Shown one piece after another: positions 30,451-47,249 of a stretch of 64,000 bases of DNA (positions are counted from its first letter, which is position 1; every line of letters begins with the position of its first letter). This stretch comes from Bifidobacterium callimiconis (lineage in GTDB: Bacteria > Actinomycetota > Actinomycetes > Actinomycetales > Bifidobacteriaceae): NCBI RefSeq assembly GCF_003952005.1, contig NZ_QXGJ01000007.1, forward strand, positions 29,841-93,840. The letters run 5' to 3'. The position numbers were made by a program, and so were the translations under genes. The notes below the pieces were generated by a model. It was not told where the DNA came from. It made no database searches and saw nothing but the letters and a program-made list of their open reading frames with translations.

Positions 30451-30472
30451 CGCCCGCGCCCTTCCCGCTGCA

Positions 30473-30895
30473 TGCTCCCTCCTCGGGCCATCCCTTCGTG
30501 CTCCCTATGTGGAGAGGCCGCGCAGCGACTCCATCTCTCCGCGCTCTCTCCCAAGGGCGTCTGCCAGCGGCCTCATCTCTCCGTGCTCCCTCCTCGGGAG
30601 GGAGCTGGCCGGCGTAGCCGGACTGAGGGAGGGTTTCGGCCCTATTCCCACCTCATCCGTCGGCTGACGCCGCCACCTTCCCCTCAAGGGGAAGGATGAA
30701 GGAGGAATGACCTGGCTTCCCCTTAAGGGGAAGCTGGCAGCAAGGGGAAGGATGAAGGAAGGACGACTTGGCTTCCCCTTAAGGGGAAGCTGGCAGCCGA
30801 AGGCTGACTGATGAGGTGCAGCGCTTTCACCCGATGATGTTGTTGCGCTCCCTCCCAGGGGCTGACCGGCGTAGTGAGGGGGTCACACCCTCACC
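30473..30895. repeat. large repeat cluster (family-A units + family-C hairpin array)
   Basis: Read directly. Confidence 0.8.
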
Positions 30896-30906
30896 TCTTT
30901 AAAAAT

Positions 30907-30923
30907 TGGAAAATAATGGAAAG
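30907..30923 (+). promoter_or_regulatory. TGGAAAA-N3-TGGAAAG motif (site g)
   Basis: tggaaaataatggaaag, directly after the repeat cluster; followed by a ~500-bp lower-GC non-coding stretch. Confidence 0.35.
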
Positions 30924-31430
30924 CCGTTGTTCTTGCGACGGCGGCTTCCCTACGATACGAAGTAGTTCGGTTCGAATAACGGCGTTCACCTTCCATGCCC
31001 GTCATTCTCCGATCTACTTCCCCTGATTTTGTCCGCAATGCCAGGGCGGGCAACAGTGAATGGACGGCGATGCCGTGGACCAGCTTGGAGGCCAGGTCCC
31101 GGTATCGTCGTCCTTTCTTTTTGCGCCGCGTCCACGTCGGCACATCCACGTCGTCGCGTCCGTATGGTCCGTATGTCGAAATCTGCCCGCGAATACGTCT
31201 TACTATGCGAAAACTTCCGCTCTTTACATCACCAAACCTCCGTTTTCGCGTCGATTTTCGTCCTTTTGACGCTGTGAATTGCGGATTTCGGGTATTTGGC
31301 GCCCCGAATTTCTCCCACCCTTGCCGAGTGCGATATCAAAGTGATATCATTTTGGTATCAGATGATCCGGTTTGCCGAAGCTCGTCGACCGGGATGACGT
31401 GCATCGGCGCGGATCGCGATAGGAAAGTGG

Positions 31431-32570
31431 GTGGTTGCAATGGGAAAGAACGGCGACGCCAACAAAGGTGGCGTCGGCATGGACGGAGCCAACAAGAATG
31501 ACAAGGCCATCGACCGCGTGAGCGGGGGAGTGGCGACTTCGGTCTCGACCCCGACCGTGGAACGTGAGGGCAGGGCCGGAAACGGCTGGAAGGCGCTCGC
31601 GTGGTCCCTGATCGGTTGGGTGGTGTCCATCGCGTTCATCGTCGCCGGTTCGACGACGATGGGCTCCGCAGAGAAGGGCGACGTGCCGTTTGTCATCGGT
31701 GTCGTGCTGCTGATCGTCGGCATCGTCGCGGTGGTCGCCATGACCATTCCGATGAGTGGATTCTTCACGCTGCAGCCCAACGAGGCGCGTGTGCTCGTAC
31801 TGTTCGGCGAATACCGCGGCACGGTGCGCGGCACTGGCTTCTACTGGGCGAACCCGTTCTATTCGCGTACGCTGCGGCCCGCCGATGCCGGAGAATCCGT
31901 CGAGGAAATGGCGGGCAAGGGCGGTAAAGGCAAGACCAAGGCCGATGCACCCGCAGGGATTTCGGCCAAGATCTCGTTGAGGGCCCGTACGCTCAACGGC
32001 CCGAAGCTCAAGGTCAACGATCGCAACGGCAATCCGATCGAGATCGCGAACGTGATCGTCTGGCGTGTGGTCGACACCGCCAAGGCCGTGTTCGACGTCG
32101 ATCAATACGATCAGTTCGTGACCACGCAGTCCGAGACCGCGCTGCGTCACGTGGCCAGTCGATATGCCTACGATCACAATGCGGAAAGCGATGATGCCGC
32201 CGCCGGTGAGATCACGTTGCGCTCAAATATTTCGGAAGTGTCCGAAGCGCTGAAGGAGGAGCTTGCCGAACGTCTGGCTCCGGCCGGCATCGCCATCGAC
32301 GACGCGCGACTGACCCACTTGGCGTACGCGCCCGAGATCGCGCAGGTGATGCTGCGCCGTCAGCAGGCCGAGGCGATCATCGCCGCGCGCACCAAGATCG
32401 TGCAGGGTGCGGTGAGCATGGTCGACATGGCGCTCAAGGAACTGGAACGTGATGGCGTGGTCGATCTCGACGAGGAGCGCAAGGCCGCCATGGTCTCGAA
32501 CCTCATGGTGGTGCTCTGCGGCGACAGCGATCCCCAGCCCGTGGTCAACGCCGGCACCCTCTACAACTGA
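31431..32570 (+). CDS. SPFH/band-7 (stomatin/prohibitin-like) membrane protein
   Basis: N-terminal TM helices then SPFH-like core (…NPIEIANVIVWRVVDTAKAVFDV…); exact start (GTG 31431 / ATG 31440) uncertain. Confidence 0.65.
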   Translation: MVAMGKNGDANKGGVGMDGANKNDKAIDRVSGGVATSVSTPTVEREGRAGNGWKALAWSLIGWVVSIAFIVAGSTTMGSAEKGDVPFVIGVVLLIVGIVAVVAMTIPMSGFFTLQPNEARVLVLFGEYRGTVRGTGFYWANPFYSRTLRPADAGESVEEMAGKGGKGKTKADAPAGISAKISLRARTLNGPKLKVNDRNGNPIEIANVIVWRVVDTAKAVFDVDQYDQFVTTQSETALRHVASRYAYDHNAESDDAAAGEITLRSNISEVSEALKEELAERLAPAGIAIDDARLTHLAYAPEIAQVMLRRQQAEAIIAARTKIVQGAVSMVDMALKELERDGVVDLDEERKAAMVSNLMVVLCGDSDPQPVVNAGTLYN

Positions 32571-33559: not shown

Positions 33560-33831
33560 CCCAACTCCCCGCAACACTCCGGGCGTGTCGCAAACTTGCG
33601 CTCGTCCATCCCCATGGTGTATAGTCCAAGTTTTGTAAACCACAGACCGTTGGTTGGAGCCGCAAGGTTCCCGAAGATTGCCAGCGCAGGTTGAGAAACA
33701 ACGCCTTGGATTCAAGGTGCCGTGATGCACGCATGCGTCACAATGCTTGTTCGCTCCGCCTGTGCGCGGGGCTTTTTTATTGCTCTCATGGCTTTCCGGA
33801 ACAACTCACGGCCGAATTAGGAAGGAACGCC
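33560..33831 (+). promoter_or_regulatory. rplJ (L10) 5' leader / autoregulatory region (probable)
   Basis: ~270-nt untranslated region upstream of rplJ, by position and by analogy with bacterial L10 leaders; structure not verified. Confidence 0.35.
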
Positions 33832-34353
33832 ATGTTAAGGCCCGAAAAGGCTGAGGTCATCGCACAGCTTACGGAGCAGTTCCGTAACGCCGACGCCGTG
33901 TACCTCACTGAGTACCGCGGGCTGAGCGTGCCGCAGATCTCCGATCTGCGCGAAAAGCTGGGCCGCGATACTTCCTACACTGTGGCGAAGAACACGCTTG
34001 CTCGTATCGCTGCGAAGGAAGCCGGCATCGAAGGCCTCGAGGATCTCCTCAAGGGCCCGACCGCTGTGACTTTCGTCTCCGGTGACTACGTCGAGGCCGC
34101 CAAGGTCCTGCGTGATTTCGCCAAGGACAACAAGCAGCTCGTCGTCAAGGGCGGCTTCGCCGATGGCACCGTGTACGATGCCGAAGGCGTTACCAAGCTC
34201 GCCGACCTCGAATCCCGCCCGGTCCTCCTGTCCAAGATCGCGTACTCCCTCAAGGCTGTACAGACCAAGACCGCTCAGCTGTTCGTCGCTCTGCCCACCA
34301 AGGCGGTGCGCACCGTGGACGCTCTGCGCGAAAAGCAGGAGAAGGCCGCCTGA
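33832..34353 (+). CDS. rplJ: 50S ribosomal protein L10
   Basis: MLRPEKAEVIAQLTEQFRNADAVYLTEYRGLSVPQISDLREKLG…; RBS ggaagga. Confidence 0.9.
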   Translation: MLRPEKAEVIAQLTEQFRNADAVYLTEYRGLSVPQISDLREKLGRDTSYTVAKNTLARIAAKEAGIEGLEDLLKGPTAVTFVSGDYVEAAKVLRDFAKDNKQLVVKGGFADGTVYDAEGVTKLADLESRPVLLSKIAYSLKAVQTKTAQLFVALPTKAVRTVDALREKQEKAA

Positions 34354-34475: not shown

Positions 34476-34856
34476 ATGGCTAAGCTCAGCAACGAAGAGC
34501 TCCTGGAAGCTTTCGGTGAAATGACCCTCGTCGAGCTCTCCGAGTTCGTGAAGGCCTTCGAGGAGAAGTTCGACGTCGAGGCTGCCGCTCCGGCCGCCGT
34601 CGCCGTTGCCGCCGCTCCGGGCGCTGCCCCGGCCGAGGAAGAGAAGGATGAGTTCGACGTCATCCTCTCCGCCGTTGGCGACAAGAAGATCCAGGTCATC
34701 AAGGCCGTGCGCGCTCTGACCTCCCTGGGTCTGGCCGAGGCCAAGGCTCTCGTGGACGGCGCTCCGAAGGCCGTTCTCGAGGGTGCCAAGAAGGAAGACG
34801 CCGAGAAGGCCAAGGCTCAGCTGGAAGAGGCTGGCGCCACCGTCGAGCTCAAGTAA
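34476..34856 (+). CDS. rplL: 50S ribosomal protein L7/L12
   Basis: [34 protein letters not shown]…[27 protein letters not shown]…. Confidence 0.95.
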
Positions 34857-35065
34857 TGATGGCGGCGTGAGCCGCGCATATTACATATGCTTGTTGGAAC
34901 CCCGTTCCGTGTTCATGCACGGGACGGGGTTCCTGTATTTCCGCACAATGTATTTCCGCACAATGTGCAGATGTGCGACGCGTCCGTCGTTCCACCGCAA
35001 ATAATTCGGGAAGCCATGACACAATAGTGTTTGAGTGTCGTTTTGGGTTAGAGGAGGCATACGCT

Positions 35066-36619
35066 GTGAGTGATCAGCAATGGCTAATCAGGGTCAATGG
35101 CGTCGACGAATTGCGTGTCGATGCGGGGCAGACCGTGGTGATCGGCCGTAAGCCCCTGCGCCCCATGGCAGCGGAGCAGGGGACGATCCGTCTGGATGTG
35201 GAGGACACGACCAAATCGATGTCGAAACGTCACGCCCGTTTCGAGGTGGCGGACAATCTCAGCGCCAAACTTGAAGACACCGGCTCCACGAATGGTACGT
35301 ATGTGGTTCGCGACGACGGCGAACTCATGCGTATTCCCGCCGGTCAGGCGTTCATGCTGCCGCGTTCTCCCATGCGATTCCAGTTTGGCGACGTTCCGGT
35401 GGATTTTCTGAAGGTGCAGGCCGAGGCGCCGAACCGTCAGGTGACCGATCTGTTCTCATTCGCCGCGCCGGGCGGCCAGCAGAACGTCGATGCCGCGTCG
35501 ATGAGCGTGGATGACATTCTTGATCTTCGCGCCGGTGAACCCACTGGTCTGTTGAACACCAATACCGTGCGCAGCCGTATCGATGCGTTGCATGATCGTG
35601 CCGTGGCCGATCAGCTGCGACAGGGGCGTGGCACCGGCGGTTTCGTGGGCGGCTGGCTGAACGCGAATGGTCAGCCAACCGGGCAGCCGGCGTCCATCCA
35701 GCCGGTGTTCACCGCCAATCGCGCGGCACAGCAGCAGCCGATCGCACAGCAGCCGGACCAGCAGCAGGCCGTGGTGCGTGACACGCAGCCGCTGCAGCAG
35801 AACGTACAGCAGGCGCCGAACGCACAGTCCAGTACGCCGCAGTCCAGTACGCCGCAGTCCGATCTGCAGCAGGCCGCCGCGCAGAACATCGCGGACGACA
35901 CCGCGCGCGATGCATCGGATGAACCGGTGCAGCCGGCAACCGTCGCCGTGAATCCGAACGTCGGCATCGTGGCAAACGATGCGAATGCCGTCGCGGCAAA
36001 CACCGCCGTAGGCGCCGCGGAAAATCCGTCCGAATCCATCCCCGCGACGACTCCCGAGGGCGGCGTGTCTATCACGGCCACGACGCCCGCCGCAACCGAT
36101 GCGGTCGACGTGCCCGTCATGCAGGAGCGACCCGAACGTCAACCCGAACCGCGCGATCTGTTCCAGGACGCCGCAGCGGCCCGTCGCAGCACTGCCGAAC
36201 GAGTGAGCGCCCTGCCCGTCATCGATGCGAGCGGTGGCGTGATCGGCGGAGGCATGCGTCCGAACGCCGCTCTGGAACAGGCCGCCGCAGCCGATCACGG
36301 TCCGGCACCTCGTACCGCGTTCACTCCGGTATTCGAAGCCGGATCCGTCTTCGAACGGCTGTCTCGCGGCGAACTCAACCAGCCCGAGCCCACCATCGAG
36401 GTGGACGGCTTCACTTCGGATCAGGCCAAGACGTCGCGTAACTTCGACGAACAGTTCGACATGGCCAACCATCCCGAGCTGCTGCCGTTCCTGGCGATGA
36501 ACCCCGCGCTGTACCCCGATCTGTACGCGTGGCTGGAACTGCAGGGCAACGATGACATCGACCAGGCGCTGAGCAACAACAGCGGCTATCAGGAATTCAA
36601 GGCCGCCAAAGAGGAGTAG
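35066..36619 (+). CDS. FHA-domain protein with long Gln/Pro/Ala/Thr-rich low-complexity C-terminal region
   Basis: FHA core (…VVIGRKP…RLDVEDTTKSMSKRHARFEV…EDTGSTNGTYV…); RBS gaggagg then GTG 35066. Confidence 0.7.
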   Translation: MSDQQWLIRVNGVDELRVDAGQTVVIGRKPLRPMAAEQGTIRLDVEDTTKSMSKRHARFEVADNLSAKLEDTGSTNGTYVVRDDGELMRIPAGQAFMLPRSPMRFQFGDVPVDFLKVQAEAPNRQVTDLFSFAAPGGQQNVDAASMSVDDILDLRAGEPTGLLNTNTVRSRIDALHDRAVADQLRQGRGTGGFVGGWLNANGQPTGQPASIQPVFTANRAAQQQPIAQQPDQQQAVVRDTQPLQQNVQQAPNAQSSTPQSSTPQSDLQQAAAQNIADDTARDASDEPVQPATVAVNPNVGIVANDANAVAANTAVGAAENPSESIPATTPEGGVSITATTPAATDAVDVPVMQERPERQPEPRDLFQDAAAARRSTAERVSALPVIDASGGVIGGGMRPNAALEQAAAADHGPAPRTAFTPVFEAGSVFERLSRGELNQPEPTIEVDGFTSDQAKTSRNFDEQFDMANHPELLPFLAMNPALYPDLYAWLELQGNDDIDQALSNNSGYQEFKAAKEE

Positions 36620-36630
36620 AGACGAACACC

Positions 36631-39600
36631 ATGAATGCAACCGAGAACAAGCTCGAACCGGCGGCCGCATTGGAACGCATCCGTTCGTGGTACCGTGAGT
36701 ACCGCAACGAGCACGGACCTTCCCCGGTGGAGGATCTGTCCCAGCTGGAGGCGCGTCTCGATCTGACGCATGCGCATCCGTCGGGTATCGCGCAGCTGTT
36801 CGCCAGCGGCCACGTGCAGCTGAGCAGCCTGTTCCGTGACAGCGGCATGCTGCGCGCCGGTCAGCGTCGTCTGTCGCGCGTGCTGGAGGATCAGATCGCG
36901 GTGGAAAGCGCCAGCGGCAACGCACAGCTGTCCCTTGCCGTGGGCGTGGCCAGCTGGAAGGGCTCGGCCATGCCGCTGCTGCTCTACCCGGTGCAGGTGG
37001 ATCAGGAAGAGGGCGCCGAATCCCTCGCCCACGCGCAGATCCGGTTCACGTCCACCGCCACGCTCAATCCGGCGTTCATCTCCGCCATGCATGATCAGGG
37101 CGTGATGCTCGACGAGGATGCACTGCTTGACTCGTCGCAGTACGCCGACAATTCCCCGGAGACGTCCGCACTGTTCTCCCGCATCACGTCGTTGGTGGGC
37201 GATTCGGTGGATTCGTTCATCGTTGAGCGCGAGATCATCCTCGGTTGCTTCATTCACTCGTCCACATTGTTCATCGAGGAGGCGCAGACGCTGCTGCGTC
37301 GCATGGAGCGTGGTGTGACCGGCAACGATCTGCTCGACACACTCGCCGGCAACGACAAGGCCGCCGCGTTCCTGTCGGAGTATCCGGTCTCCTCGTACAC
37401 ACCGTACGACATCGATCCGCACAACGAACTCGAGATCGGCGACGTCGATAACGTCACGCGCTACGCCGCGCAGATTGTGTCGTCGGGCGCGTCCGCGTTC
37501 GTCGATCTGCCGGGCGGCCGCGATTCCGAATCCATCGCCGCCGGCGTGACTAGTCGTGCCATCATGAACGGCAAGACCGTGCTGTACGTGCCGTGCGTGC
37601 CGAGTCAGAAGCGTCGGTTCGTCAAGCAGGTCAAGCGTTACGACATGTCCGGCATGCTGCTCGACATCAACGACAGTGCGTTCAACAACGCCATCGACCA
37701 TCAGCTCATCGCGGCCGTCGGCTTCCAGCCCGGCACGGCCAGCGCACACTTCGACCAGGTGGCCGACGAGCTCGTGGGCGTGCGTACCCGTTTGGCCCGC
37801 TATCTTGGCGACCTGCACGGCAAGAACAAGGAATGGGGCATCTCCGCGTACGAGACGATCCAGAACCTCGCCCGCATCTCCGCGCTGCCCACGCACCCGG
37901 CCACGCACGTGCGCCTGACCGAAGGCACGGCCCGACAGCTGGGCAATTCCATGGACGCGTGGAGCAAGAAGCTCGTGCGTGCCGGCGAGCTCGGCGAGTT
38001 CGAGATCGGCCCGGAGGACACGTCGTGGTTCAAGGCCGCCGTGTACAGCGAGCAGGAGGCCGTGAACGCCTACCAGCGTGTGGTCCGTCTACTCGAGAAG
38101 CTGCTGCCCGACGTGCGCGAGCAGATCCGCATGGTGGTGGAGACCTGCGGATTCCCGATCCCGAACACCATGCAGGAGTGGAGCCGCCAGGTGGTGGTGC
38201 TCAAGAACCTGCGCCGCGTGCTCGACGTGTTCCAGCCGGCCGTGTTCGAGCGTGACATCCCCGCCATGATCGAGGCGTCCAAGTCCAAGGCCGCCCGCAA
38301 GACCGAGGGCACCACGATGGGCTTCTGGGAGCGTCGCCGCCACGTCAAGGAGGCGAAGAGCCTGCTGCGTGTGGGCGCCCAGGTGGAGGATCTGCACGAG
38401 GCGCTGCTCGTGGTGGCCAAGCAGGCCGAACAGTGGCGCATGTTCGTACCCCACGGCGGATGGCCCGTGCTGCCGCCCAAGCTCGACGACATCATCGACA
38501 CGCAGGACGCGATCCTCTCCGACCTGACCGCGCTGAACAGCGTGCTTGCTACCACGCCCGACGGCGCCGAACTCGAATCCGTGCAGTTCGCTGCGCTTGA
38601 ATCCCGTCTGCAGGCCCTGTTCGACGATCATCGTTCGCTCGACACTCTGCCCGAACGCAGCGCACTCGAGCGCGACTTCGTGGCCAACGGACTCGGCGAT
38701 CTCGTCGACGACCTGCGCAACCGTCGCGTCTCCAAGGACGCCGCCCCCGGCGAACTGCAGCTCGCCTGGTGGACCACCATCTTCGAACTGATCGTGCACT
38801 CCTCGCCGATCATCTCCAATCAGGACGGTTCCGTGCTCTCGTCCGCCTCCGAACGCTTCGCGCAGGTGGACGCCGAACACGTGGCCAGCGTTGGACCGAT
38901 GGTCAACCAGGAGATGACCAAGCGACTGAGCGAACTGCTGTTCTCCCGCTCGCACGAGGCGAACCAGCTGCACACGCTGCTCGCCAACCCGGCCCGTGTG
39001 CCGCTGAGCCGCCTGCGCCGCGACTACCCGAACATTCTCACCGCCACCAAGCCGATCCTCGTGGCGTCGCCCGCCACACTCGTGGCGAACACGTCGCTCG
39101 GCCATCTCGCCGACATCGCCATCATCGACTCCGCGGCCCACATGAACCCGCTGGAACTGCTGTCGATCCTGGCGCGTGTGGATCAGGCGGTCGTCATCGC
39201 CCACCGCGAGACCATCACGTCGCCCGCAGTGGCGGCCCTCGTGCCGTACCTCAAGCAGCTGAAGGTACGGGCGCGCGTCGACCATCGCGACCCGCGCATC
39301 TCCCGCTTCCTTGAAGACAACGGATACGGCAAGGTGCCGCTCATGCTGTCGTCGATGCCGAACCCGCGCGGCGGCGTACGCTACACGCGCGTCGAGGCCA
39401 GCGGCGTGCCGTCGCCCGTCACCGGACTGGTGGAAAGCAGCAAGAGCGAGATCGACAAGGTGATCGAGCTGGTCATCGGCCGCGCCACCGGATTCTCGAT
39501 CGTGCCGGCATCCTACTCGCTGACCATCGTGACCATCTCCCAGGTGCATCGCCAGCGCATCGGCGCCGAACTCAAATCCCGCAGCTCCAAGGATCCGGGA

Positions 39601-40368
39601 CTACGCAAGTTCCTGCGCCACGTGCGCATCGTCAGCCTCAACGAGGTCAGCGGCGTGGAATCCGACGACGTGATCATCACGCTCGGCTTCGCGCGCACCA
39701 CGCACGGCCGTCTCCTCCAGCAGTTCGGCATGCTCGAACTCAACGGCGGTGACGCCATGCTGCTCGACGCGCTCGCGCTCGCCCACGTGCATGTGGATGT
39801 CGTCTCCTCGTTCGGTTCCCAGGATCTTGATGACGAGCGCCTGCGCCAGCCCGGTGCTCAGCTCATGAAGAAGCTGCTCGCCTGGTGCGAGCACCTCGAC
39901 GAGGTGAAGGTGCCCGAGCCGCGCCCGCTGCCCAAGGAGTCGAGCACGCTGCTCATCGATCTGGCCGAACGTATGCGCGCCCGTGGCCTGCACGTGGAGC
40001 TCAACTACGGCTATCCCGACGGCATGAGCATTCCGATGGTCGTCGGCCTGCCCGGCAAGCCGTTCATTCTGGCCATCGAAACCGACGACGCCGGATTCAT
40101 GTCGATCCCGTCCACACGCCAGCGTCACCGCTTCGAGATGGAGGATCTGCAGGCCATGGGCTGGTCGGTCATGGTCGTGTGGAGCGTGGCCGCCTTCGTC
40201 AACCCCGACAAGGAGGTCGACCGCGTGGTGGCCCGCATGGCCGAGCTCGTCGGTGCTACCGGTGCCGCCGGTGCCGGTGCGAAGGGTGCCCAGCCGCGAC
40301 CCGCGTCCGGCGTCCCGGCCGGTCGTGCCGCCGGCGCTGCCAGTGCCGCTGGAACAAGGACCGCGTGA
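36631..40368 (+). CDS. large Upf1-like SF1 helicase homologue (DUF4011-like N-term, AAA_11/AAA_12-like core, C-terminal DUF559/Vsr-type REase-like domain); catalytic motifs apparently degenerate
   Basis: DUF4011-like LSLAVGVASW…LLLYPV; Walker-A position reads DLPGGRDSES (not GPPGTGKS); DExx position reads IIDSAAH; motif VI position reads SGVE; C-terminus …ETDD…GWSVMVVWS… resembles DUF559. Confidence 0.6.
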   Translation: MNATENKLEPAAALERIRSWYREYRNEHGPSPVEDLSQLEARLDLTHAHPSGIAQLFASGHVQLSSLFRDSGMLRAGQRRLSRVLEDQIAVESASGNAQLSLAVGVASWKGSAMPLLLYPVQVDQEEGAESLAHAQIRFTSTATLNPAFISAMHDQGVMLDEDALLDSSQYADNSPETSALFSRITSLVGDSVDSFIVEREIILGCFIHSSTLFIEEAQTLLRRMERGVTGNDLLDTLAGNDKAAAFLSEYPVSSYTPYDIDPHNELEIGDVDNVTRYAAQIVSSGASAFVDLPGGRDSESIAAGVTSRAIMNGKTVLYVPCVPSQKRRFVKQVKRYDMSGMLLDINDSAFNNAIDHQLIAAVGFQPGTASAHFDQVADELVGVRTRLARYLGDLHGKNKEWGISAYETIQNLARISALPTHPATHVRLTEGTARQLGNSMDAWSKKLVRAGELGEFEIGPEDTSWFKAAVYSEQEAVNAYQRVVRLLEKLLPDVREQIRMVVETCGFPIPNTMQEWSRQVVVLKNLRRVLDVFQPAVFERDIPAMIEASKSKAARKTEGTTMGFWERRRHVKEAKSLLRVGAQVEDLHEALLVVAKQAEQWRMFVPHGGWPVLPPKLDDIIDTQDAILSDLTALNSVLATTPDGAELESVQFAALESRLQALFDDHRSLDTLPERSALERDFVANGLGDLVDDLRNRRVSKDAAPGELQLAWWTTIFELIVHSSPIISNQDGSVLSSASERFAQVDAEHVASVGPMVNQEMTKRLSELLFSRSHEANQLHTLLANPARVPLSRLRRDYPNILTATKPILVASPATLVANTSLGHLADIAIIDSAAHMNPLELLSILARVDQAVVIAHRETITSPAVAALVPYLKQLKVRARVDHRDPRISRFLEDNGYGKVPLMLSSMPNPRGGVRYTRVEASGVPSPVTGLVESSKSEIDKVIELVIGRATGFSIVPASYSLTIVTISQVHRQRIGAELKSRSSKDPGLRKFLRHVRIVSLNEVSGVESDDVIITLGFARTTHGRLLQQFGMLELNGGDAMLLDALALAHVHVDVVSSFGSQDLDDERLRQPGAQLMKKLLAWCEHLDEVKVPEPRPLPKESSTLLIDLAERMRARGLHVELNYGYPDGMSIPMVVGLPGKPFILAIETDDAGFMSIPSTRQRHRFEMEDLQAMGWSVMVVWSVAAFVNPDKEVDRVVARMAELVGATGAAGAGAKGAQPRPASGVPAGRAAGAASAAGTRTA

Positions 40369-40619
40369 TGACCGCTGATTCCACTGCCGGCTCCACTGCC
40401 GGCTCCACCCAGTCGGGCGCATCCCGGCGCAAAAAGCATCGTCGCGTGGTGTTCAAGGGAACGGAACGGTTCGACGCCGAAGGATTCTTCGACGCCGAAC
40501 CTTCCAACGACCCCGACGCCCTGCGCGAGCGCGCCAACAAGTCCCGCGACGACGACCAGCGCATCCTGACCGAACTGCCCCCGCACTGGGCCAAGTTCGA
40601 CGCCGAAGGCCGCCGCTGA
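40368..40619 (+). CDS. small hypothetical protein (83 aa), start overlaps upstream stop (ATGA)
   Basis: ORF in frame 39885..40619; ATG 40368 overlaps TGA of the helicase-like gene; basic RRKKHRR stretch; no known motif. Confidence 0.4.
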   Translation: MTADSTAGSTAGSTQSGASRRKKHRRVVFKGTERFDAEGFFDAEPSNDPDALRERANKSRDDDQRILTELPPHWAKFDAEGRR

Positions 40620-40628
40620 AGAGACATA

Positions 40629-40675
40629 TCCTTCCCCTTGAGGGGAAGGTGTCCGCCAACGGCGGACGGATGAGG
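40629..40675. repeat. family-C repeat unit (ccccttgaggggaagg…cggacggatgaggtg)
   Basis: Read directly. Confidence 0.75.
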
Positions 40676-40805: not shown

Positions 40806-40997
40806 ATGCCTACGTATCATTACCGTTGCAAGAACTGTTCGTACGATTTCACCGAACAGCAGTCGTTCACCGACGACCCGATCACCGTCTGCCCGAAGTG
40901 CGGCGAGGAGCAGGTGCACAAGGTGTACGCCGCCCCGTCCATCGAGTTCAAGGGCCACGGTTTCTACCGCACCGACGGCGCATCCTCCAAGAAGTGA
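40806..40997 (+). CDS. FmdB-family zinc-ribbon protein (putative regulatory protein)
   Basis: MPTYHYRC.NC……CPKCG… two CxxC pairs; RBS ggaggag. Confidence 0.75.
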   Translation: MPTYHYRCKNCSYDFTEQQSFTDDPITVCPKCGEEQVHKVYAAPSIEFKGHGFYRTDGASSKK

Positions 40998-42630: not shown

Positions 42631-43347
42631 GTGAAGTCCGGCCGCTTGTACGTCCCTCGGCGGAACATGGTAGCCATGTTCCGGCTGTTTTCCAGAAATC
42701 AGGTGTCCGAGACGGGTAATGCAGACTTCCGCGTGCCGTCCGTGCTTGAGGCGCCGCAGGGATTCGCGCCGCTGCGACTTCGCCCCATGGTCGGCGCGGA
42801 TTGGGATGAATGGAGCGCCGCCCGCCAGCGTAACGAAGAATGGCTCAGGCCGTGGGATTCCGGCGACCCGCTGCACGGTGCCCCCGTAACGTTCGACGAA
42901 TGGCTCAATCGTCAGCGTGAGGCGGAGCGTTTGGGACGTGGCATCATTCTGCTGATGGAGCTCAATGACTGCATTGTTGGACAGATTTCGCTCGGCGCGG
43001 TCAACTATGGTTCCATGCGTACCGGCACCGTCGGGTATTGGGTCGACGAGGCGCATGCCGGACGGGGGTTGGCGCCGCTCGCTCTGGCCATGATCGGCGA
43101 CTGGGCGCTCACCGATCCGACCGGCCCGCAGCTGCATCGCATGGAGGTGGCGATCCTTCCGGAGAACGAGCGCTCCAAGCATGTTGTGGAGAAAGTGGGG
43201 ATGAATTTCGAGGGGGTACGGCACAGTTATATGTATGTGAACGGCCAGTGGCGCGATCATGAGGTGTATGTTCTGCTTGATTCCGACGTTTCCGGCTCGT
43301 TGACGAGTCGTCTGAAACCGGAATCGGGCCCGACACACCGCCCGTGA
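42631..43347 (+). CDS. GNAT-family N-acetyltransferase (RimJ/RimL-like)
   Basis: …IGQISLGAV…GYWVDEAHAGRGLAPLAL…; exact start uncertain. Confidence 0.7.
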   Translation: MKSGRLYVPRRNMVAMFRLFSRNQVSETGNADFRVPSVLEAPQGFAPLRLRPMVGADWDEWSAARQRNEEWLRPWDSGDPLHGAPVTFDEWLNRQREAERLGRGIILLMELNDCIVGQISLGAVNYGSMRTGTVGYWVDEAHAGRGLAPLALAMIGDWALTDPTGPQLHRMEVAILPENERSKHVVEKVGMNFEGVRHSYMYVNGQWRDHEVYVLLDSDVSGSLTSRLKPESGPTHRP

Positions 43348-45029
43348 GCCTTCGCGTTTTTTCAGGAGGTTACCCTATCGTAGAGTTCATGGATCTGGAT
43401 TCGCTCGCAAGTGTTGTGTTGTGGGCGATAGTATTGATACTTATGTTCGGTCTTCAGCCGTGGAAAACGATGAGCGGCATGAGGAACGCGATGGAGCATC
43501 GTCCAGACCGGTATTCCGCATCATTGCATATCATCGATATGGATGATGGTATGCACTTCGGCGACAGGACACCAACTACCGCCGGGAAAGGGACGGCTAT
43601 GCAGTCTGGGGCACAGGCAACCAAGCTCGATGATAAGCGGATCGAGCATGTGCGCGCGTTGCGTCGTGCCGCCATTCGTCGTCGTCAGATTCTCGTGGGT
43701 TCGCTGCTCGCCGTCGCCATCGTGGTGTTCGTTCTCGCCCTGCTGCTGCATTTCAGTCCGCTGTTCGCGTTGATTCCGGTTGTGCTTGATGTGATCGTGC
43801 TCGCTCTGGGTGTGCGCGCGTCCAAGCAGGCGCGCGAGTGGGAGCATAAGGTGGCCGCGGCCAAGCGTCGTGCCGCCAAGAAGAGCAAGGCGTCCGGCGC
43901 GGCGGCAAAGGGGGCTCGTAACCGTGGCACGGGTGCCGGTGCTGCCGCAGCGTCCGCTGCAGGCGAGCCCGACGCGCAGACCGCCACCGATGCGATGAGT
44001 GCGCAGGATATTCAGGCCGCGCTCGAGCGTGCCAAGGCGGAGAAGATCGCCGCCCTTCGTGCCCGTGAGCTGGAGCGTCGCGCGCGCGAGGCTGCCGCCC
44101 GTGCGCAGGCACAGTCCGTGATGCCGGATGACGATGAAGAAGATGTGGTTGAGGAGACGCCGTCTGCTGGTGTTTCGTCTGCCGGCGTTCCGGCTGCACA
44201 GTCCGCGCAGTCGCCGGCCACGATCGCTCCGCGCAGCCAGCGCCGCCATGAGACCGGCGAAACCCCGAAGGTCGCTCGCCAGCAGGCTGCAGGCGGTATG
44301 CGACCTGCAACGCACAAGCCCGTTTCGGCGCAGTCCCAGACCGCCGCGACCGCTGACGGTGCTGCCAAGCCCGTCGCCGCCAAGCCTGCGATCAAGGAGA
44401 AGCCGGCCGCCGAACCCGAGGACTTCACCAACGAACTCGAGCGGGTATCGCCGTCCCATGCGCTCGACGCATTCGAACTCGCCGCGAATCAGGATCTCAT
44501 CTCCTTCTCGCTGGGTGCCCCGCGCCATGGCAAGCCGGTCAAGGCCGCCGAACCGCAGAGCCTCGAGATCAAGTCCACCAAGCAGGTGGCCCACGCCGAA
44601 CCGGTGAAGGCCGCACCGGCCGCCGACGATAAGGCCAAGACCTCGTCAGATACGAAGCCCGCCGCTGTCGGATCCGATAAGGCTGGAATGACCTCGCGCT
44701 CCGATGCGAAGGCTGCCGCCGAGGAGCAGCGCTCCGGCCGGCCCGTGCAGGGTTCCTCCGCTCGTGCGCAGCGTGCCGCCCGTCCTGCAGCGAACGCCGC
44801 ATCGAAGCAGACCGCCCCGGTCACGCCTTCCAGCATTCGCCCGGCATCCGTTCCCAAGGACGATGCCGTGTCCCGTCTGGTAGGCGACAAGAAGGTCGAG
44901 GAGGCTGCCGCCCGTCGTGCCGAGCGCAAGGCCGCCGTCGCCGCCCACGCTCCGGTCGCAGCCCCCAAGGAGACCGAGGAATCCCTCGGCGTAAACGTGG
45001 ACGCCGTTCTGGCCCGTCGTCGCGGCTGA
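43344..45029 (+). CDS. hypothetical membrane protein with Ala/Lys/Arg/Pro-rich low-complexity C-terminal region
   Basis: 2-3 predicted TM helices near the N-terminus, then long charged/Ala-rich sequence; GTG 43344 overlaps upstream stop; start uncertain (ATG 43389 possible). Confidence 0.4.
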   Translation: MSLRVFSGGYPIVEFMDLDSLASVVLWAIVLILMFGLQPWKTMSGMRNAMEHRPDRYSASLHIIDMDDGMHFGDRTPTTAGKGTAMQSGAQATKLDDKRIEHVRALRRAAIRRRQILVGSLLAVAIVVFVLALLLHFSPLFALIPVVLDVIVLALGVRASKQAREWEHKVAAAKRRAAKKSKASGAAAKGARNRGTGAGAAAASAAGEPDAQTATDAMSAQDIQAALERAKAEKIAALRARELERRAREAAARAQAQSVMPDDDEEDVVEETPSAGVSSAGVPAAQSAQSPATIAPRSQRRHETGETPKVARQQAAGGMRPATHKPVSAQSQTAATADGAAKPVAAKPAIKEKPAAEPEDFTNELERVSPSHALDAFELAANQDLISFSLGAPRHGKPVKAAEPQSLEIKSTKQVAHAEPVKAAPAADDKAKTSSDTKPAAVGSDKAGMTSRSDAKAAAEEQRSGRPVQGSSARAQRAARPAANAASKQTAPVTPSSIRPASVPKDDAVSRLVGDKKVEEAAARRAERKAAVAAHAPVAAPKETEESLGVNVDAVLARRRG

Positions 45030-45543: not shown

Positions 45544-45837
45544 GTGTCGATTGCACTCACACCGTTGGAAGACAAGATTGTCATCAAGCAGGCCGCTGCC
45601 GAAACCCAGACCGCTTCCGGTCTGTTCATTCCGGACAGCTCCAAGGAGAAGCCGCAGCAGGGCGAAGTCCTGGCCGTGGGCCCGGGCCGTCGCGACGACA
45701 AGGGCGAGCGCATCCCCGTCGATGTGAAGGTCGGCGACAAGGTCCTGTACTCCAAGTACGGCGGCACCGAGGTCAACTACGGCGGCGAGGACTACCTGAT
45801 CGTCTCCGCTCGCGACGTGCTGGCCATCCTGAACTGA
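45544..45837 (+). CDS. groES: co-chaperonin GroES
   Basis: [77 protein letters not shown]…; RBS gaggagg; GTG start. Confidence 0.95.
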
Positions 45838-46121: not shown

Positions 46122-47234
46122 ATGATGGGGGATCAGCATCACGAAGATCGATATCAGAACAGATATCGTGACGCATACGACGACCGTGATCCGCATGACG
46201 GACATTCTGCATACGACGATTCGGCCTTATCCGACCCCGCCGGAATCCCGCAACGCATTATCGACGCGCTCGCCGGTGTGCTGTCCTGCTCGCGCGACGT
46301 GATCGAACTGACCGTGACCGTACTGTGCGCGGGCGGTCATCTGCTGCTCGAGGACGTGCCAGGCGTGGGTAAGACCACACTCGCCCGCGCACTCGGCCAG
46401 TGCGTCGGCGGCACCGTGCACCGCATCCAGTTCACGCCCGACATGATGCCGTCCGACCTGACCGGCGTGAACGTGTACGATCAGCGCACGCAGCGCTTTG
46501 AGTTCCACCCCGGACCGCTGTTCGCCGACATCGTCATCGCCGACGAGGTGAACCGCGCCAACCCCAAGACCCAGTCCGCCATGCTCGAGGCCATGGCCGA
46601 ACGACAGATCAGCGTGGACGGCGTCACCCGCCAGCTGCCCGAACCGTATCTGGTGCTCGCCACGCAGAATCCGATCGAGCTCGAGGGCACGTATCCTCTA
46701 CCCGAAGCGCAGCTTGACCGCTTCATGGCCCGCACATCGATCGGCTATCCCACGCACGACGCCGAACGCGCCATGCTGCTCGGCACGCATGCCGGCGAAC
46801 CGCTGACCGATCTGCGTCCCGTGTGCTCCACGCTCGAGCTGGCCGACGTACTCGCCCGTGTGCGCGCTGTGCATGTGAGCGAGCCGGTGGCCGACTACAT
46901 CGTGTCGATCGTGCGTGCCACCCGCGATCATCCCGACGTGCGATTCGGCGCCTCGCCGCGCGCCGGACTGAACCTGCTGGCCATGGCCCGCGCCCGCGCA
47001 TACATCGACGGCCGTGATTTCGTCACGCCGAACGATGTCAAGACGTTGGCCGTCGTCGTGCTCGCGCATCGCCTCGTACCCCGTTCGATGACCGGATCGG
47101 TCGCATCCGCCGACCAGTGCGCACAGATCGTGGAATCGGTGCTGGAGTCGGTACCAGCGCCGAACGCCGGACGATCCGCCGCCTGGCAGTCCGGCCATTC
47201 GGCACGTTCCGCCCGATCGTCGCGGTCCCGATAG
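46122..47234 (+). CDS. MoxR-family AAA+ ATPase
   Basis: GHLLLEDVPGVGKTTLARALG (Walker A); ADEVNRANPKTQSAMLEAMAERQISV…; LATQNP. Confidence 0.9.
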   Translation: MMGDQHHEDRYQNRYRDAYDDRDPHDGHSAYDDSALSDPAGIPQRIIDALAGVLSCSRDVIELTVTVLCAGGHLLLEDVPGVGKTTLARALGQCVGGTVHRIQFTPDMMPSDLTGVNVYDQRTQRFEFHPGPLFADIVIADEVNRANPKTQSAMLEAMAERQISVDGVTRQLPEPYLVLATQNPIELEGTYPLPEAQLDRFMARTSIGYPTHDAERAMLLGTHAGEPLTDLRPVCSTLELADVLARVRAVHVSEPVADYIVSIVRATRDHPDVRFGASPRAGLNLLAMARARAYIDGRDFVTPNDVKTLAVVVLAHRLVPRSMTGSVASADQCAQIVESVLESVPAPNAGRSAAWQSGHSARSARSSRSR

Positions 47235-47249
47235 GCCCGGTGAACCGCC

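What the first reader, a model, noticed from the sequence alone, without database searches (positions are those of the whole stretch)
35066..40619. FHA-domain protein co-encoded with a 1245-aa Upf1-like helicase homologue whose catalytic motifs look degenerate, plus a C-terminal REase-like domain and a trailing small ORF
The large protein has a recognisable family architecture:
- DUF4011-like N-terminus;
- AAA_11/AAA_12-like core;
- DUF559/Vsr-like C-terminus (…ETDD…GWSVMVVWS…).

At the expected catalytic positions it carries non-canonical residues:
- Walker A reads DLPGGRDSES instead of GPPGTGKSQT.
- DExx reads IIDSAAH instead of DEA.Q.
- Motif VI region reads SGVE instead of QGRE.

This suggests an ATPase-dead scaffold or sensor instead of an active helicase.

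It is tightly linked to an FHA (phospho-threonine-binding) protein: 11-bp gap upstream. An 83-aa ORF follows with an ATGA overlap. This hints at a phospho-signalling module.

Helicase+nuclease-domain proteins are typical of defence islands, but the flanks here are ribosomal genes. The function is open.
Basis: partly seen in the sequence, partly recalled or inferred. Interest (0 to 1): 0.6.

Follow-up and report, generated by a model that had tools for sequence, protein, structure and literature searches.

The report
Dead helicase-nuclease operon with FHA partner
A core three-gene operon of bifidobacteria encodes a phosphothreonine-binding adaptor, a large helicase-nuclease look-alike that has lost its catalytic residues but stays strongly conserved, and a small tail protein; it is a housekeeping pseudo-enzyme of unknown role, not a phage-defence gene.

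Summary
Window 35066-40619 (Bifidobacterium callimiconis or a near relative) carries three co-directional genes between two hairpins: an FHA-LRV_2 protein, a 1245-aa protein and an 83-aa protein.

The large protein aligns end to end with active actinobacterial DUF4011/AAA_11/AAA_12/MTES_1575 helicase-nucleases (hhalign probability 100, E 4e-131). Its predicted structure (pLDDT 90) has an Upf1/Sen1/Aquarius-like core. Walker A Lys, Walker B Glu, motifs III and V, the motif VI arginines and the first nuclease Asp are all replaced. It is one member of a large motif-less clade (Bifidobacteriaceae, Actinomycetaceae, Cellulomonadaceae).

An active enzyme sits at the same chromosomal position in Angustibacter, so this gene is its positional orthologue. 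All three genes are under purifying selection (dN/dS 0.04-0.30).

The small ORF carries a C-terminal "LL.E.PPHW" motif. It accompanies or is fused to both active and dead relatives, so it is the ancient partner.

The FHA gene is adjacent in 82/82 Bifidobacteriaceae-like loci but 0/7 outside them, so it is a lineage-specific addition. Its pThr-binding residues are invariant.

Best reading: a non-catalytic scaffold or nucleic-acid-binding protein, coupled to Ser/Thr-kinase signalling in bifidobacteria. The biological role is undetermined.

The parts
34896..34933 (+). Hairpin with a 17-bp stem after rplL. It marks the upstream boundary of the operon.
   Evidence: Terminator-like site with 17 pairs, 11 of them G-C; sequence read.
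35066..36619 (+). Gene for the FHA-linker-LRV_2 protein (517 aa from GTG 35066, RBS GAGGAGG at 35051-35057).
   Evidence: Pfam FHA E 5.6e-7 (30.3 bits, cut-off 20.7) and LRV_2 E 1.1e-10. Orthologues carry PF00498 and PF25591. dN/dS 0.15-0.20.
35135..35305 (+). FHA domain core with the pThr-binding residues: GR, S-x-x-H and N-G.
   Evidence: Pfam match at aa 55-111 of the 548-aa frame. IGRKP, SMSKRH and GSTNG are invariant in 60 orthologues.
36464..36577 (+). C-terminal LRV_2 repeat. It lies inside a conserved C-terminal domain of about 110 aa.
   Evidence: Pfam PF25591, 41.8 bits. C-terminal conservation profile. The same domain is present in L086 and L087.
36631..40368 (+). Gene for the 1245-aa catalytically degenerate DUF4011/Upf1-like helicase-nuclease homologue.
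   Evidence: hhalign to active relatives: probability 100, E 4e-131, 1176 columns. AF2 pLDDT 90, pTM 0.76. Foldseek hits to Aquarius, SETX, Upf1, IGHMBP2 and Dna2. dN/dS 0.04-0.22.
36673..37230 (+). DUF4011-like N-terminal domain, approximately aa 15-200.
   Evidence: It aligns to the DUF4011 region of active relatives, which score PF13195. It is below Pfam detection in this protein.
37507..37536 (+). Walker A-equivalent loop LPGGRDSESI (aa 293-302). The Lys and Ser/Thr are lost.
   Evidence: Aligned to GPPGTGKSQT. Majority fraction is 0.50 against 0.74 overall.
37633..39045 (+). All-helical insertion of about 470 aa (aa 335-805) between motifs Ia and II. It holds the most conserved stretches of the protein.
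39112..39141 (+). Motif II-equivalent DIAIIDSAAH (aa 828-837). The Asp is kept; the catalytic Glu and the Gln are lost.
   Evidence: Aligned to FDVVxFDEASQ. D828, D833 and H837 are invariant.
39646..39789 (+). Motif V/VI-equivalent region (aa 1006-1053): SGVESD ... GGDAMLLDALALAH. The arginines are lost.
   Evidence: Aligned to QGDERD ... GGERRLNVAxTRAR. The replacement motif is itself conserved, 0.85.
39961..40236 (+). MTES_1575 (Vsr/DUF559-like) restriction-endonuclease-fold domain, aa 1111-1202. P1135 stands where the first catalytic Asp should be.
   Evidence: Pfam PF18741, 41.6 bits against cut-off 38.2. IDLAVG <-> IPMVVG and VEADG <-> IETDD. P1135 is invariant, and E1150 is the majority residue in only 63% of orthologues.
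40368..40619 (+). Gene for an 83-aa protein: basic N-terminal patch (RRKKHRRVV), acidic linker, C-terminal RILTELPPHW motif.
   Evidence: Found in 78/80 Bifidobacteriaceae loci and in all 9 additional loci fetched, of which 7 lie outside the lineage and one carries it as a fusion. Twenty-three of 132 relatives end in the motif. dN/dS 0.07-0.30.
40560..40589 (+). The RILTELPPHW motif of the small protein.
   Evidence: Position computed. The motif recurs.
40630..40649 (+). Hairpin CCTTCCCC-TTGA-GGGGAAGG, 11 nt after the small ORF stop. It is the probable end of the operon and has no T-run.
   Evidence: Read directly from the sequence. The terminator scan did not call it.

Best explanation
**What it is.** The region is a self-contained three-gene operon. 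It belongs to the vertically inherited core genome of Bifidobacteriaceae.

**The large protein.** It descends from an active SF1B (Upf1-like) helicase fused to a Vsr/DUF559-like nuclease, with the architecture DUF4011 + AAA_11 + AAA_12 + MTES_1575. Other Actinomycetota keep an active version at the same chromosomal position, upstream of mscL, a SAF-domain gene and an FmdB-type zinc-ribbon gene. In the lineage leading to Bifidobacteriaceae, Actinomycetaceae and Cellulomonadaceae the gene stayed in place. It lost the residues needed to bind and hydrolyse ATP: Walker A Lys/Ser, Walker B Glu, motifs III and V, and the motif VI arginines. It also lost the first metal-binding Asp of the nuclease.

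**How it most likely works.** The fold, the DUF4011 N-domain, a 470-residue helical insertion and the nuclease-fold domain remain under strong purifying selection. The protein therefore most likely acts without catalysis, as a scaffold and/or nucleic-acid-binding module. RecC (a dead helicase plus dead nuclease in RecBCD) and the dead helicase domain of AddB work in that way.

**The partners.** Its ancient partner is the small downstream protein, whose acidic linker ends in a 'LL.E.PPHW' tip. In other lineages this tip is the C-terminal tail of the large protein itself, so it probably docks onto the large protein or onto a shared partner. In the Bifidobacteriaceae lineage an FHA-linker-LRV_2 gene was inserted directly upstream. 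Its intact pThr pocket would tether the complex to a protein phosphorylated by a Ser/Thr kinase, or regulate the complex through that protein.

**Shown:** gene structures, homology, fold, motif losses, synteny, selection, co-conservation.

**Inferred:** absence of ATPase and nuclease activity, physical association of the three proteins, nucleic-acid binding, phospho-dependence. The cellular process served is unknown.
For: **Homology and fold**
- hhalign of the bifidobacterial profile against 12 active relatives gives probability 100, E 4e-131, 1176 of 1233 columns and 28% identity.
- The active relatives score DUF4011, AAA_11, AAA_12, MTES_1575 and DUF559 in Pfam.
- The AF2 model has pLDDT 90 and pTM 0.76.
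- Foldseek hits Aquarius, SETX/Sen1, Upf1, IGHMBP2, Dna2, ZNFX1 and nsp13, with E from 6e-10 to about 6e-4.

**Motif loss**
- Among 165 family members, 12 are canonical, 48 lack the P-loop Lys, and 105 share this protein's signature (no GK[ST], IP[LM]xVG, xTDD).
- One split of an NJ tree holds 106 of the 109 signature sequences recounted.
- The active profile finds IGHMBP2, Dna2, Upf1, Sen1 and RecD in the PDB by sequence (best E 8e-22). The bifidobacterial profile finds nothing.

**Constraint**
- dN/dS is 0.04-0.22 for the large gene, 0.15-0.20 for FHA and 0.07-0.30 for the small ORF.
- The P-loop-equivalent is the least conserved motif at 0.50, while the insertion and the REase-fold residues score 0.86-1.0.

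**Positional orthology**
- Angustibacter has an active helicase, then a 55-aa ORF ending ERWLLEQRPPHWD, then mscL, SAF and Zn_ribbon_8.
- The same mscL-SAF-zinc-ribbon-cyclo-ligase-moeA-GNAT neighbourhood, complete or in part, follows the dead versions in Georgenia, Timonella, Occultella, Actinomycetaceae and Actinomyces oris. The window has the zinc ribbon, SAF and GNAT genes.

**Small ORF**
- It is present in 78/80 Bifidobacteriaceae loci and in all 9 additional loci, 7 of them outside the lineage, as a separate ORF or a fusion.
- Twenty-three of 132 relatives end in the motif.

**FHA**
- It is adjacent in 80/80 loci and in two deep relatives at 38% identity.
- GR, SxxH and NG are invariant.

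**Transcription unit**
- A hairpin follows rplL.
- The gap is 11 nt, and the stop and start overlap.

**Precedents for dead helicase or nuclease scaffolds:** PMC1185551, PMC3321194, PMC4504706.
Against: - No biochemical or genetic datum exists for any member. I found no paper on the family in ten literature searches.
- Loss of canonical motifs does not strictly prove loss of nucleotide binding. Outside bifidobacteria the clade keeps a conserved 'DAPPGxDxxGT' loop and a conserved Asp in motif II, which could bind another ligand.
- Physical association of the three proteins is untested, because no multimer prediction was available.
- The FHA gene is absent next to the orthologue in 7/7 loci outside the Bifidobacteriaceae lineage. 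It is therefore not essential to the ancestral function, and its link could be regulatory or only transcriptional.
- No conserved Thr ligand was identified. The best candidate, the Thr of GTERFD in the small protein, varies (T/S/N/K/R) among orthologues.
- The helical insertion has no structural analogue that would support nucleic-acid binding.
Confidence: 0.6

Rival explanations
1. The operon is an anti-phage defence system related to Hhe, ProA or PDC-S37. The helicase-nuclease would be the effector and the FHA protein a sensor or regulator.
For: - The best library hits of the large protein are defence models. NCBIfam gives antiphage_ProA E 5e-57 and Hhe 2e-20.
- PADLOC gives PDC-S37 9e-63 and Hhe 2e-15.
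- Hhe is a single-protein helicase plus Vsr-nuclease defence (bioRxiv 10.1101/2022.06.16.496414).
Against: - Scores are far below the equivalog cut-offs: 193 against 1500, and 72 against 2000.
- The helicase and nuclease catalytic residues are absent, whereas Hhe needs its nuclease Glu (E1731A abolishes defence; same preprint).
- The gene is present at the same locus in 80/80 Bifidobacteriaceae species genomes sampled, and it is syntenic across families.
- There is no close homologue on phages or true plasmids.
- No compositional anomaly is seen: GC is 0.61-0.66 across the region, like its surroundings.
Confidence: 0.04
2. The large protein is still an NTPase or translocase that uses non-canonical residues, so 'dead' is a misreading.
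For: - Motif II Asp (D833) and a His at the Gln position (H837) are invariant.
- Non-bifidobacterial clade members conserve a DAPPGxDxxGT loop and GDxRR.
- The RecA-like fold is intact.
Against: - Walker A Lys and Ser/Thr, Walker B Glu and both motif VI arginines are all missing simultaneously.
- In bifidobacteria the P-loop-equivalent is poorly conserved, with majority fractions of 0.25-0.9 and a mean of 0.50. An active site would not drift like that.
- The profile no longer detects any helicase in the PDB.
Confidence: 0.06
3. The FHA-LRV_2 gene is only a transcriptional neighbour. It would act in another pathway (for example cell-envelope or division signalling, as with FhaA, FipA and GarA in other Actinobacteria), and its adjacency to the dead helicase would be frozen synteny without a physical or functional link.
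For: - The FHA gene is absent from all 7 loci outside the lineage, while the large gene and small ORF persist.
- No fusion of FHA or LRV_2 to any of 149 family representatives was found.
- The neighbourhood contains actinobacterial division-associated genes: a GlpR-like protein and glp in relatives.
Against: - Adjacency holds in 82/82 loci, across divergence of the large protein down to 38% identity.
- The intergenic gap is 11 nt, with no terminator between the genes.
- All three genes sit between two hairpins.
Confidence: 0.2
4. The large gene is a decaying relic (pseudogene in progress) of a once active helicase-nuclease, with no present function.
For: - All catalytic motifs are lost.
- The C-terminal extension present in other families is lost in bifidobacteria.
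Against: - The reading frame is intact and full length in the 80 genome loci and 120 database orthologues examined.
- dN/dS is 0.04-0.22.
- Mean column identity is 68-75% across the genus.
- The predicted fold is confident.
- The clade spans several families, which implies long retention.
Confidence: 0.01

Closest known systems
Actinobacterial DUF4011 / AAA_11 / AAA_12 / MTES_1575 helicase-nucleases (e.g. Angustibacter sp. Root456 WP_082538059.1)
   Same: - Homology is full length: probability 100, 28% identity.
- The domain order is the same, including the 470-aa helical insertion.
- The chromosomal position is the same, upstream of mscL, SAF and the zinc ribbon.
- The same small PPHW ORF follows.
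   Different: - The Angustibacter protein has GPPGTGKS, DEASQ, GDERQL, QGDERD, GGERRLNVAVTRAR, IDLAVG and VEADG.
- The window protein has none of these catalytic residues.
- It has no FHA neighbour.
- The function of the active family is itself uncharacterised.
Hhe, ProA and PDC-S37 anti-phage helicase-nucleases
   Same: The superfamily and architecture are the same: DUF4011-type SF1 helicase plus a Vsr-like nuclease. These are the best hits in NCBIfam and PADLOC.
   Different: - Scores are 7- to 28-fold below the equivalog cut-offs.
- The window protein has lost its catalytic residues.
- It is a core, syntenic gene rather than a defence-island gene.
- Hhe requires its nuclease Glu (10.1101/2022.06.16.496414).
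Upf1-like SF1B helicases (Upf1, IGHMBP2, Sen1/SETX, Aquarius, Dna2)
   Same: - The RecA1/RecA2 core fold matches (Foldseek probability 1.0).
- Dna2 also combines a helicase with a PD-(D/E)xK nuclease.
   Different: - Sequence identity is 8-15%.
- No helicase motifs are retained, and the bifidobacterial profile finds none of these proteins by sequence.
- The accessory domains differ.
RecC and AddB (dead helicase and/or dead nuclease scaffolds of RecBCD and AddAB); Deinococcus PriA pseudohelicase
   Same: The logic is the same: helicase and nuclease folds are retained without catalytic residues and are used for binding or scaffolding (PMC1185551, PMC3321194, PMC4504706).
   Different: - They are not homologous beyond the superfamily level. 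This is an analogy only.
- No active partner subunit is known here.
- No evidence for DNA-end processing exists.
Actinobacterial FHA adaptors (FhaA, FipA/FhaB, GarA/OdhI)
   Same: They share a canonical FHA domain with the GR, SxxH and NG pocket. There are weak NCBIfam hits to FhaB and OdhI. These adaptors operate in Ser/Thr-kinase signalling.
   Different: - The architecture differs: N-terminal FHA, a Q/A/P-rich linker and a C-terminal LRV_2 domain.
- Scores are far below the equivalog cut-offs: 19.8 against 125, and 19.1 against 200.
- The genomic partner differs.

Membership tests
DUF4011-type SF1B helicase-nuclease family (active members, Hhe/ProA-like) | Full-length homology, including the DUF4011 N-domain and the AAA_11/AAA_12 core | tested here: met
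   hhalign gives probability 100, E 4e-131 and 1176 aligned columns against 12 active members that score these Pfam domains. Pfam itself does not detect DUF4011, AAA_11 or AAA_12 in the window protein.
DUF4011-type SF1B helicase-nuclease family (active members, Hhe/ProA-like) | Walker A GxxGxGK[ST] | tested here: not met
   LPGGRDSESI aligns to GPPGTGKSQT. The loop is poorly conserved.
DUF4011-type SF1B helicase-nuclease family (active members, Hhe/ProA-like) | Walker B / motif II DExx, and motif III GDxxQL | tested here: not met
   IIDSAAH aligns to FDEASQ, and VVIAHRET aligns to VVAGDERQL.
DUF4011-type SF1B helicase-nuclease family (active members, Hhe/ProA-like) | Motif V QGxExD, and the motif VI arginines (RRLNVAxTRAR) | tested here: not met
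   SGVESD and GGDAMLLDALALAH occupy those positions.
DUF4011-type SF1B helicase-nuclease family (active members, Hhe/ProA-like) | Upf1-like two-RecA-domain fold | tested here: met
   The AF2 model has pLDDT 90. Foldseek probability is 1.0 to Aquarius, SETX, Upf1, IGHMBP2 and Dna2.
DUF4011-type SF1B helicase-nuclease family (active members, Hhe/ProA-like) | C-terminal MTES_1575 / Vsr-like REase-fold domain | tested here: met
   PF18741 scores 41.6 bits against a cut-off of 38.2, at aa 1111-1202. There is a weak PADLOC Vsr hit.
DUF4011-type SF1B helicase-nuclease family (active members, Hhe/ProA-like) | Nuclease catalytic residues: the first Asp (Vsr D51 equivalent) and the Glu of ExDG | tested here: not met
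   - IDLAVG aligns to IPMVVG, with P1135 invariant.
- The Glu is present in the window (E1150) but is the majority residue in only 63% of orthologues, and it is Leu in most clade members.
- The assignment of Vsr D51 is from my own recollection of the Vsr structure.
NCBIfam equivalogs antiphage_ProA (NF058533) and Hhe_antiphage (NF042953) | Score above the curated whole-protein cut-off | tested here: not met
   193.3 bits against 1500, and 71.8 bits against 2000.
Anti-phage defence systems in general | Variable presence, defence-island or mobile-element context | tested here: not met
   - The gene is present and syntenic in 80/80 species genomes, and across families.
- It is absent from phages and true plasmids.
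FHA domain proteins | Pfam FHA above the gathering score | tested here: met
   30.3 bits against 20.7. All listed orthologues but one carry PF00498.
FHA domain proteins | pThr-binding residues: Gly-Arg, Ser-x-x-His, Asn-Gly | tested here: met
   IGRKP, SMSKRH and GSTNG are invariant across 60 orthologues.
FHA domain proteins | Binding of a phosphothreonine ligand | not testable with these tools
   This needs peptide-binding assays or phosphoproteomics. No conserved candidate Thr was found.
RecC/AddB-type dead helicase-nuclease scaffolds (functional analogy only) | Assembly with an active helicase or nuclease subunit, and DNA-sequence recognition | not tested
   No partner enzyme is encoded in the operon. 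No interaction or binding data are available.

The most novel reading that the evidence does not exclude
A previously unrecognised, ancient pseudo-enzyme complex of the Actinomycetales. In this reading a RecC-like dead helicase / dead nuclease kept the chromosomal position and the small 'PPHW-tail' partner of its active ancestor, and acquired a new, non-catalytic housekeeping role. That role might be a nucleic-acid or nucleoid/transcription-associated platform built around the unique 470-aa helical insertion. In bifidobacteria the platform would have been wired to Ser/Thr-kinase signalling by recruiting a dedicated FHA-LRV_2 adaptor. The C-terminal LL.E.PPHW peptide would be a new docking motif.
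Probability: 0.3. Interest if true: 0.7.

Novelty: new variant of a known kind. Interest (0 to 1): 0.55.

Why it matters
- Public annotation calls this protein 'helicase' or 'DNA helicase' in Bifidobacterium and relatives. The analysis here shows that label is functionally misleading.
- The gene is a core gene of an important gut genus, and also of Actinomyces and Cellulomonas. It has no known role.
- The family offers a natural series from active enzyme, to a K-less intermediate, to a fully motif-less protein at one orthologous locus. That makes it a clean system for studying how helicase-nucleases become pseudo-enzymes.
- The conserved PPHW tail gives a concrete, testable handle on the protein's partners, and so does the bifidobacteria-specific FHA adaptor.
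- The case is also a caution for defence-system annotation: the best library hits are anti-phage models, yet the locus is not a defence system.

Tried and rejected
1. **FHA or LRV_2 fused to relatives (a Rosetta-stone link).** HMMs of both domains found nothing in 149 representatives.
2. **N-terminal extensions of non-bifidobacterial relatives as hidden FHA domains.** The same negative result applies.
3. **Programmed frameshift joining the large ORF to the small ORF.** Rejected. In several species the small ORF starts after a gap, with a stop just upstream in its own frame (e.g. L043, L036, L051). In the window it has its own RBS.
4. **The Thr of 'GTERFD' in the small protein as the FHA ligand.** The position varies (T/S/N/K/R) among orthologues, so this is not supported.
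5. **PDB sequence search with the bifidobacterial profile.** No hit.
7. **AFDB Foldseek search.** The library was unavailable.
8. **Literature.** Searches for DUF4011, MTES_1575, PDC-S37, ProA, the RPPHW string, Bifidobacterium FHA and phosphoproteome, and pseudohelicase found no paper on this family.
9. **Link to the bifidobacterial PFNA kinase operon.** Its MoxR/DUF58/transglutaminase part lies 5.5 kb downstream. However, no kinase is encoded between the two loci (GroES and a GlpR-like gene intervene), and the PFNA fha gene is a different gene.
10. **Midpoint-rooted NJ tree.** It did not show the dead clade as one group, but a single unrooted split does. No maximum-likelihood tree was possible.
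11. **Representatives search with the full-length alignment A1.** It was repeated with the trimmed alignment A2.

Full report
**1. What is in the sequence**

The window is bifidobacterial. The FHA protein is 100% identical to a Bifidobacterium callimiconis entry. The large protein is 98% identical to that of B. vansinderenii and 96% to that of B. tissieri.

The order of features on the + strand is as follows:

| Feature | Coordinates | Note |
|---|---|---|
| rplJ | 33691-34353 | |
| rplL | 34476-34856 | |
| hairpin | 34896-34933 | 17-bp stem |
| FHA gene | 35066-36619 | GTG start, GAGGAGG 8 nt upstream |
| gap | 36620-36630 | 11 nt |
| large gene | 36631-40368 | 1245 aa |
| small ORF | 40368-40619 | 83 aa; ATG shares one base with the TGA; AAGGA 7 nt upstream |
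| hairpin | 40630-40649 | 8-bp G+C-rich stem |

Downstream come an FmdB-like zinc-ribbon ORF, a SAF-domain gene, a GNAT gene, a GlpR-like gene and groES. GC content shows no anomaly.

**2. The large protein is a true but motif-less member of the DUF4011 helicase-nuclease family**

- Pfam sees only the C-terminal MTES_1575 restriction-endonuclease-fold domain. Nothing else appears even at E<=10.
- NCBIfam and PADLOC give partial, far sub-threshold hits to the anti-phage models ProA, PDC-S37 and Hhe.
- An exhaustive profile search of 1.84 billion cluster representatives returned 8152 relatives with E<=1e-3, 869 of them with E<=1e-30. Most of the 150 listed match over nearly the full length.
- Only about a dozen of the best 149 carry GPPGTGKS at about aa 300 and [VI][VI]FDEA at about aa 845.
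- Those active relatives score DUF4011, AAA_11, AAA_12, MTES_1575 and DUF559 in Pfam.
- A profile of 14 bifidobacterial orthologues aligns to a profile of 12 active relatives with probability 100, E 4e-131, over 1176 of 1233 columns at 28% identity.
- The AF2 model of aa 13-1208 is confident (pLDDT 90.0, pTM 0.76). Foldseek matches it to Aquarius, SETX/Sen1, Upf1, IGHMBP2, Dna2, ZNFX1 and nsp13.

The residue-level alignment gives these equivalences:

| Motif | Active relatives | Window protein |
|---|---|---|
| Walker A | GPPGTGKSQT | LPGGRDSESI |
| Motif II | FDVVxFDEASQ | ADIAIIDSAAH |
| Motif III | VVAGDERQLPP | VVIAHRET |
| Motif V | QGDERD | SGVESD |
| Motif VI | GGERRLNVAxTRAR | GGDAMLLDALALAH |
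| Nuclease, first Asp | IDLAVG | IPMVVG |
| Nuclease, ExDG | VEADG | IETDD |

Two points need adjusting: SGVE belongs to motif V, and the nuclease has also lost its first Asp.

The loss is visible in database behaviour too. The active profile finds IGHMBP2, Dna2, Upf1, Sen1 and RecD in the PDB by sequence (best E 8e-22). The bifidobacterial profile finds no helicase at all.

**3. The loss is ancient, clade-wide and tolerated under strong constraint**

In a 165-sequence alignment:

- 12 sequences are canonical.
- 48 have a K-less P-loop of the 'PPGTGxTQT' type (for example Neomicrococcus).
- 105 share the window's signature. Outside bifidobacteria this reads DAPPGxDxxGT / VVLDAxxH / GDxRR / AGLRRD / RIPLAVG / LTDD.

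One split of an NJ tree holds 106 of the 109 signature sequences recounted.

Named members of the signature group come from these taxa:

- Bifidobacteriaceae;
- Actinomycetaceae (Actinomyces oris and an unnamed member);
- Cellulomonas;
- Georgenia;
- Occultella;
- Sanguibacter;
- Oerskovia;
- Cellulosimicrobium;
- Timonella.

Among 121 bifidobacterial orthologues the mean majority fraction is 0.74. The Walker-A-equivalent scores only 0.50. The replaced motif VI scores 0.85, and the REase-fold residues TDD and STRxRHR score about 0.9-1.0. Long stretches of the helical insertion score 0.86.

dN/dS against related species is 0.04-0.22 for the large gene, 0.15-0.20 for FHA and 0.07-0.30 for the small ORF.

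This is a maintained protein, not a relic. What is maintained is not an ATP site.

**4. Positional orthology with an active enzyme**

In Angustibacter sp. Root456 the active helicase is followed by an overlapping 55-aa ORF, then mscL, SAF and Zn_ribbon_8.

The motif-less versions in these organisms are followed by the same neighbourhood, complete or in part: mscL, SAF, a zinc ribbon, 5-formyl-THF cyclo-ligase, moeA/glp and a GNAT gene.

- Georgenia
- Timonella
- Occultella
- an Actinomycetaceae bacterium
- Actinomyces oris

The window has the zinc ribbon, SAF and GNAT genes in the same order. The window gene is thus the in-situ descendant of an active helicase-nuclease, not a horizontally acquired paralogue or a defence-island gene.

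tblastn against phage and plasmid collections finds no close homologue. The one exception is a 415-kb Actinomyces oris 'plasmid' that carries this same core neighbourhood.

**5. The small ORF is the ancient partner**

- Its product has a basic patch (RRKKHRRVV), an acidic linker and a C-terminal RILTELPPHW.
- It is found downstream in 78/80 Bifidobacteriaceae loci.
- It is found in every one of the 9 additional loci examined, 7 of them outside the lineage. Examples are Timonella '...NDERLLRDVPPHWGR', Angustibacter '...ERWLLEQRPPHWD', A. oris '...NDARLRRDVPPHWG' and Georgenia, where the ORF was not called.
- In 23 of 132 full-length family representatives, both active and inactive, the same motif is the extreme C-terminus of the large protein itself. 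Occultella is one example.

A gene that is alternately fused and split is good evidence for a physical or functional link. What the tip binds is unknown. No Pfam, NCBIfam or PADLOC family matches the small ORF, and no literature matches it.

**6. The FHA gene is a lineage-specific addition**

- The product has an N-terminal FHA domain with invariant GR, SxxH and NG residues. A variable Q/A/P-rich linker follows, then a highly conserved C-terminal domain of about 110 aa containing an LRV_2 repeat.
- It lies immediately upstream of the large gene in 80/80 Bifidobacteriaceae loci.
- It also does so in two deep-branching relatives whose large protein is only about 38% identical (L086 and L087).
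- It is absent from the flanks in all 7 loci outside this lineage.
- It is never fused to a family member.

The pairing is not pan-actinobacterial.

**7. Mechanism**

Shown:

- homology, fold and motif loss;
- selection;
- synteny;
- fusion/split of the small ORF;
- co-conservation of the FHA gene;
- an intact pThr pocket.

Inferred:

- The large protein cannot hydrolyse ATP or cleave DNA, and acts as a scaffold or nucleic-acid-binding platform. RecC, AddB and Deinococcus PriA are precedents (PMC1185551, PMC3321194, PMC4504706).
- The PPHW tip docks on the large protein or on a shared partner.
- In bifidobacteria the FHA-LRV_2 protein links the assembly to a Thr-phosphorylated protein.

The 470-aa helical insertion is the most conserved part. 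It has no structural analogue in the PDB, so it gives no functional clue. The process served is unknown, and I found no publication on the family.

**8. Comparison and novelty**

The protein is a member by descent of the DUF4011 helicase-nuclease family. It fails every catalytic-motif criterion and the ProA/Hhe equivalog cut-offs. It should not be called a helicase or a defence protein.

It works, by analogy only, like RecC-type dead helicase/nuclease scaffolds.

Three points appear to be undescribed:

- the existence of a large, multi-family, motif-less clade at an orthologous locus;
- the PPHW partner;
- the bifidobacterial FHA adaptor.

I rate it a new variant of a known kind with moderate interest (0.55). 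It is a solid, well-delimited pseudo-enzyme case with testable handles, but no mechanism is demonstrated.

Noticed in passing
window 46122-52031: A MoxR-type AAA ATPase gene (46122-47234) is followed by a 1593-aa fusion of DUF58, TgpA_N and a transglutaminase core (47250-52031). This corresponds to the aaa-atp/duf58/tgm part of the bifidobacterial 'PFNA' cluster (PMC8430577). The pkb2 kinase and fn3 genes are not upstream here; groES (45544-45837) is.
   Followed up: partly
window 43344-45029: A 561-aa ORF with an N-terminal membrane segment and a long Ala/Lys/Pro-rich low-complexity region has no Pfam hit. Its position after the GNAT gene matches the gene flagged as weak PF28211 (GlpR) in Timonella (L082). 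It may be the GlpR-like divisome receptor of the conserved actinobacterial glp region.
   Followed up: no
window 40807-40995: A 62-aa CxxC...CxxC ORF (MPTYHYRCKNCSYDF...) sits at the position where relatives carry Zn_ribbon_8 (PF09723, FmdB family). Pfam gave no hit at E<=1e-3 for the window copy.
   Followed up: partly
window 40246-40365 (aa 1206-1245 of the large protein): The window protein has a 40-residue Ala/Gly/Pro-rich C-terminal tail. Most bifidobacterial orthologues lack it and end near aa 1205. The tail is what creates the stop/start overlap with the small ORF in this species group.
   Followed up: partly
L089 (NZ_CP116225.1, Actinomyces oris 'plasmid unnamed1', 415 kb): A record typed as a non-mobilizable plasmid carries the core neighbourhood: the helicase-like gene, mscL, SAF, 5-FTHF cyclo-ligase, glp and GNAT. 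It looks like a chromosomal segment, a chromid or a mis-assigned replicon.
   Followed up: no
window 52595-52829: A tight tRNA cluster (Tyr-GTA, Thr-GGT, Met-CAT) lies directly after the transglutaminase gene.
   Followed up: no
family-wide (representatives P0320-P0386, e.g. P0352 Neomicrococcus aestuarii): An intermediate class of relatives keeps 'PPGTGxTQT' (only the P-loop Lys replaced). Many of them also keep a TRAR-like motif VI and an ExDG nuclease motif. This suggests stepwise rather than all-at-once inactivation, or a distinct nucleotide-independent function.
   Followed up: partly
non-bifidobacterial relatives (e.g. P0249, P0256, P0287 C-termini): A conserved C-terminal extension ('...AYSDDELDALVxWIxSDG...LGLxRRGxxxD') is present in both active and dead relatives outside Bifidobacteriaceae. 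It is absent from the bifidobacterial proteins, and Pfam does not recognise it at E<=0.01.
   Followed up: no
window 28624-32570: A GH2 beta-galactosidase/glucuronidase-type gene (28624-30450) and an SPFH/Band 7 gene (31431-32570) lie upstream of rplJ. By tblastn the SPFH gene is found upstream in only 6 of the 80 loci, all close relatives; the GH2 gene was not compared. The rplJ-rplL junction to this operon is conserved far more widely.
   Followed up: no
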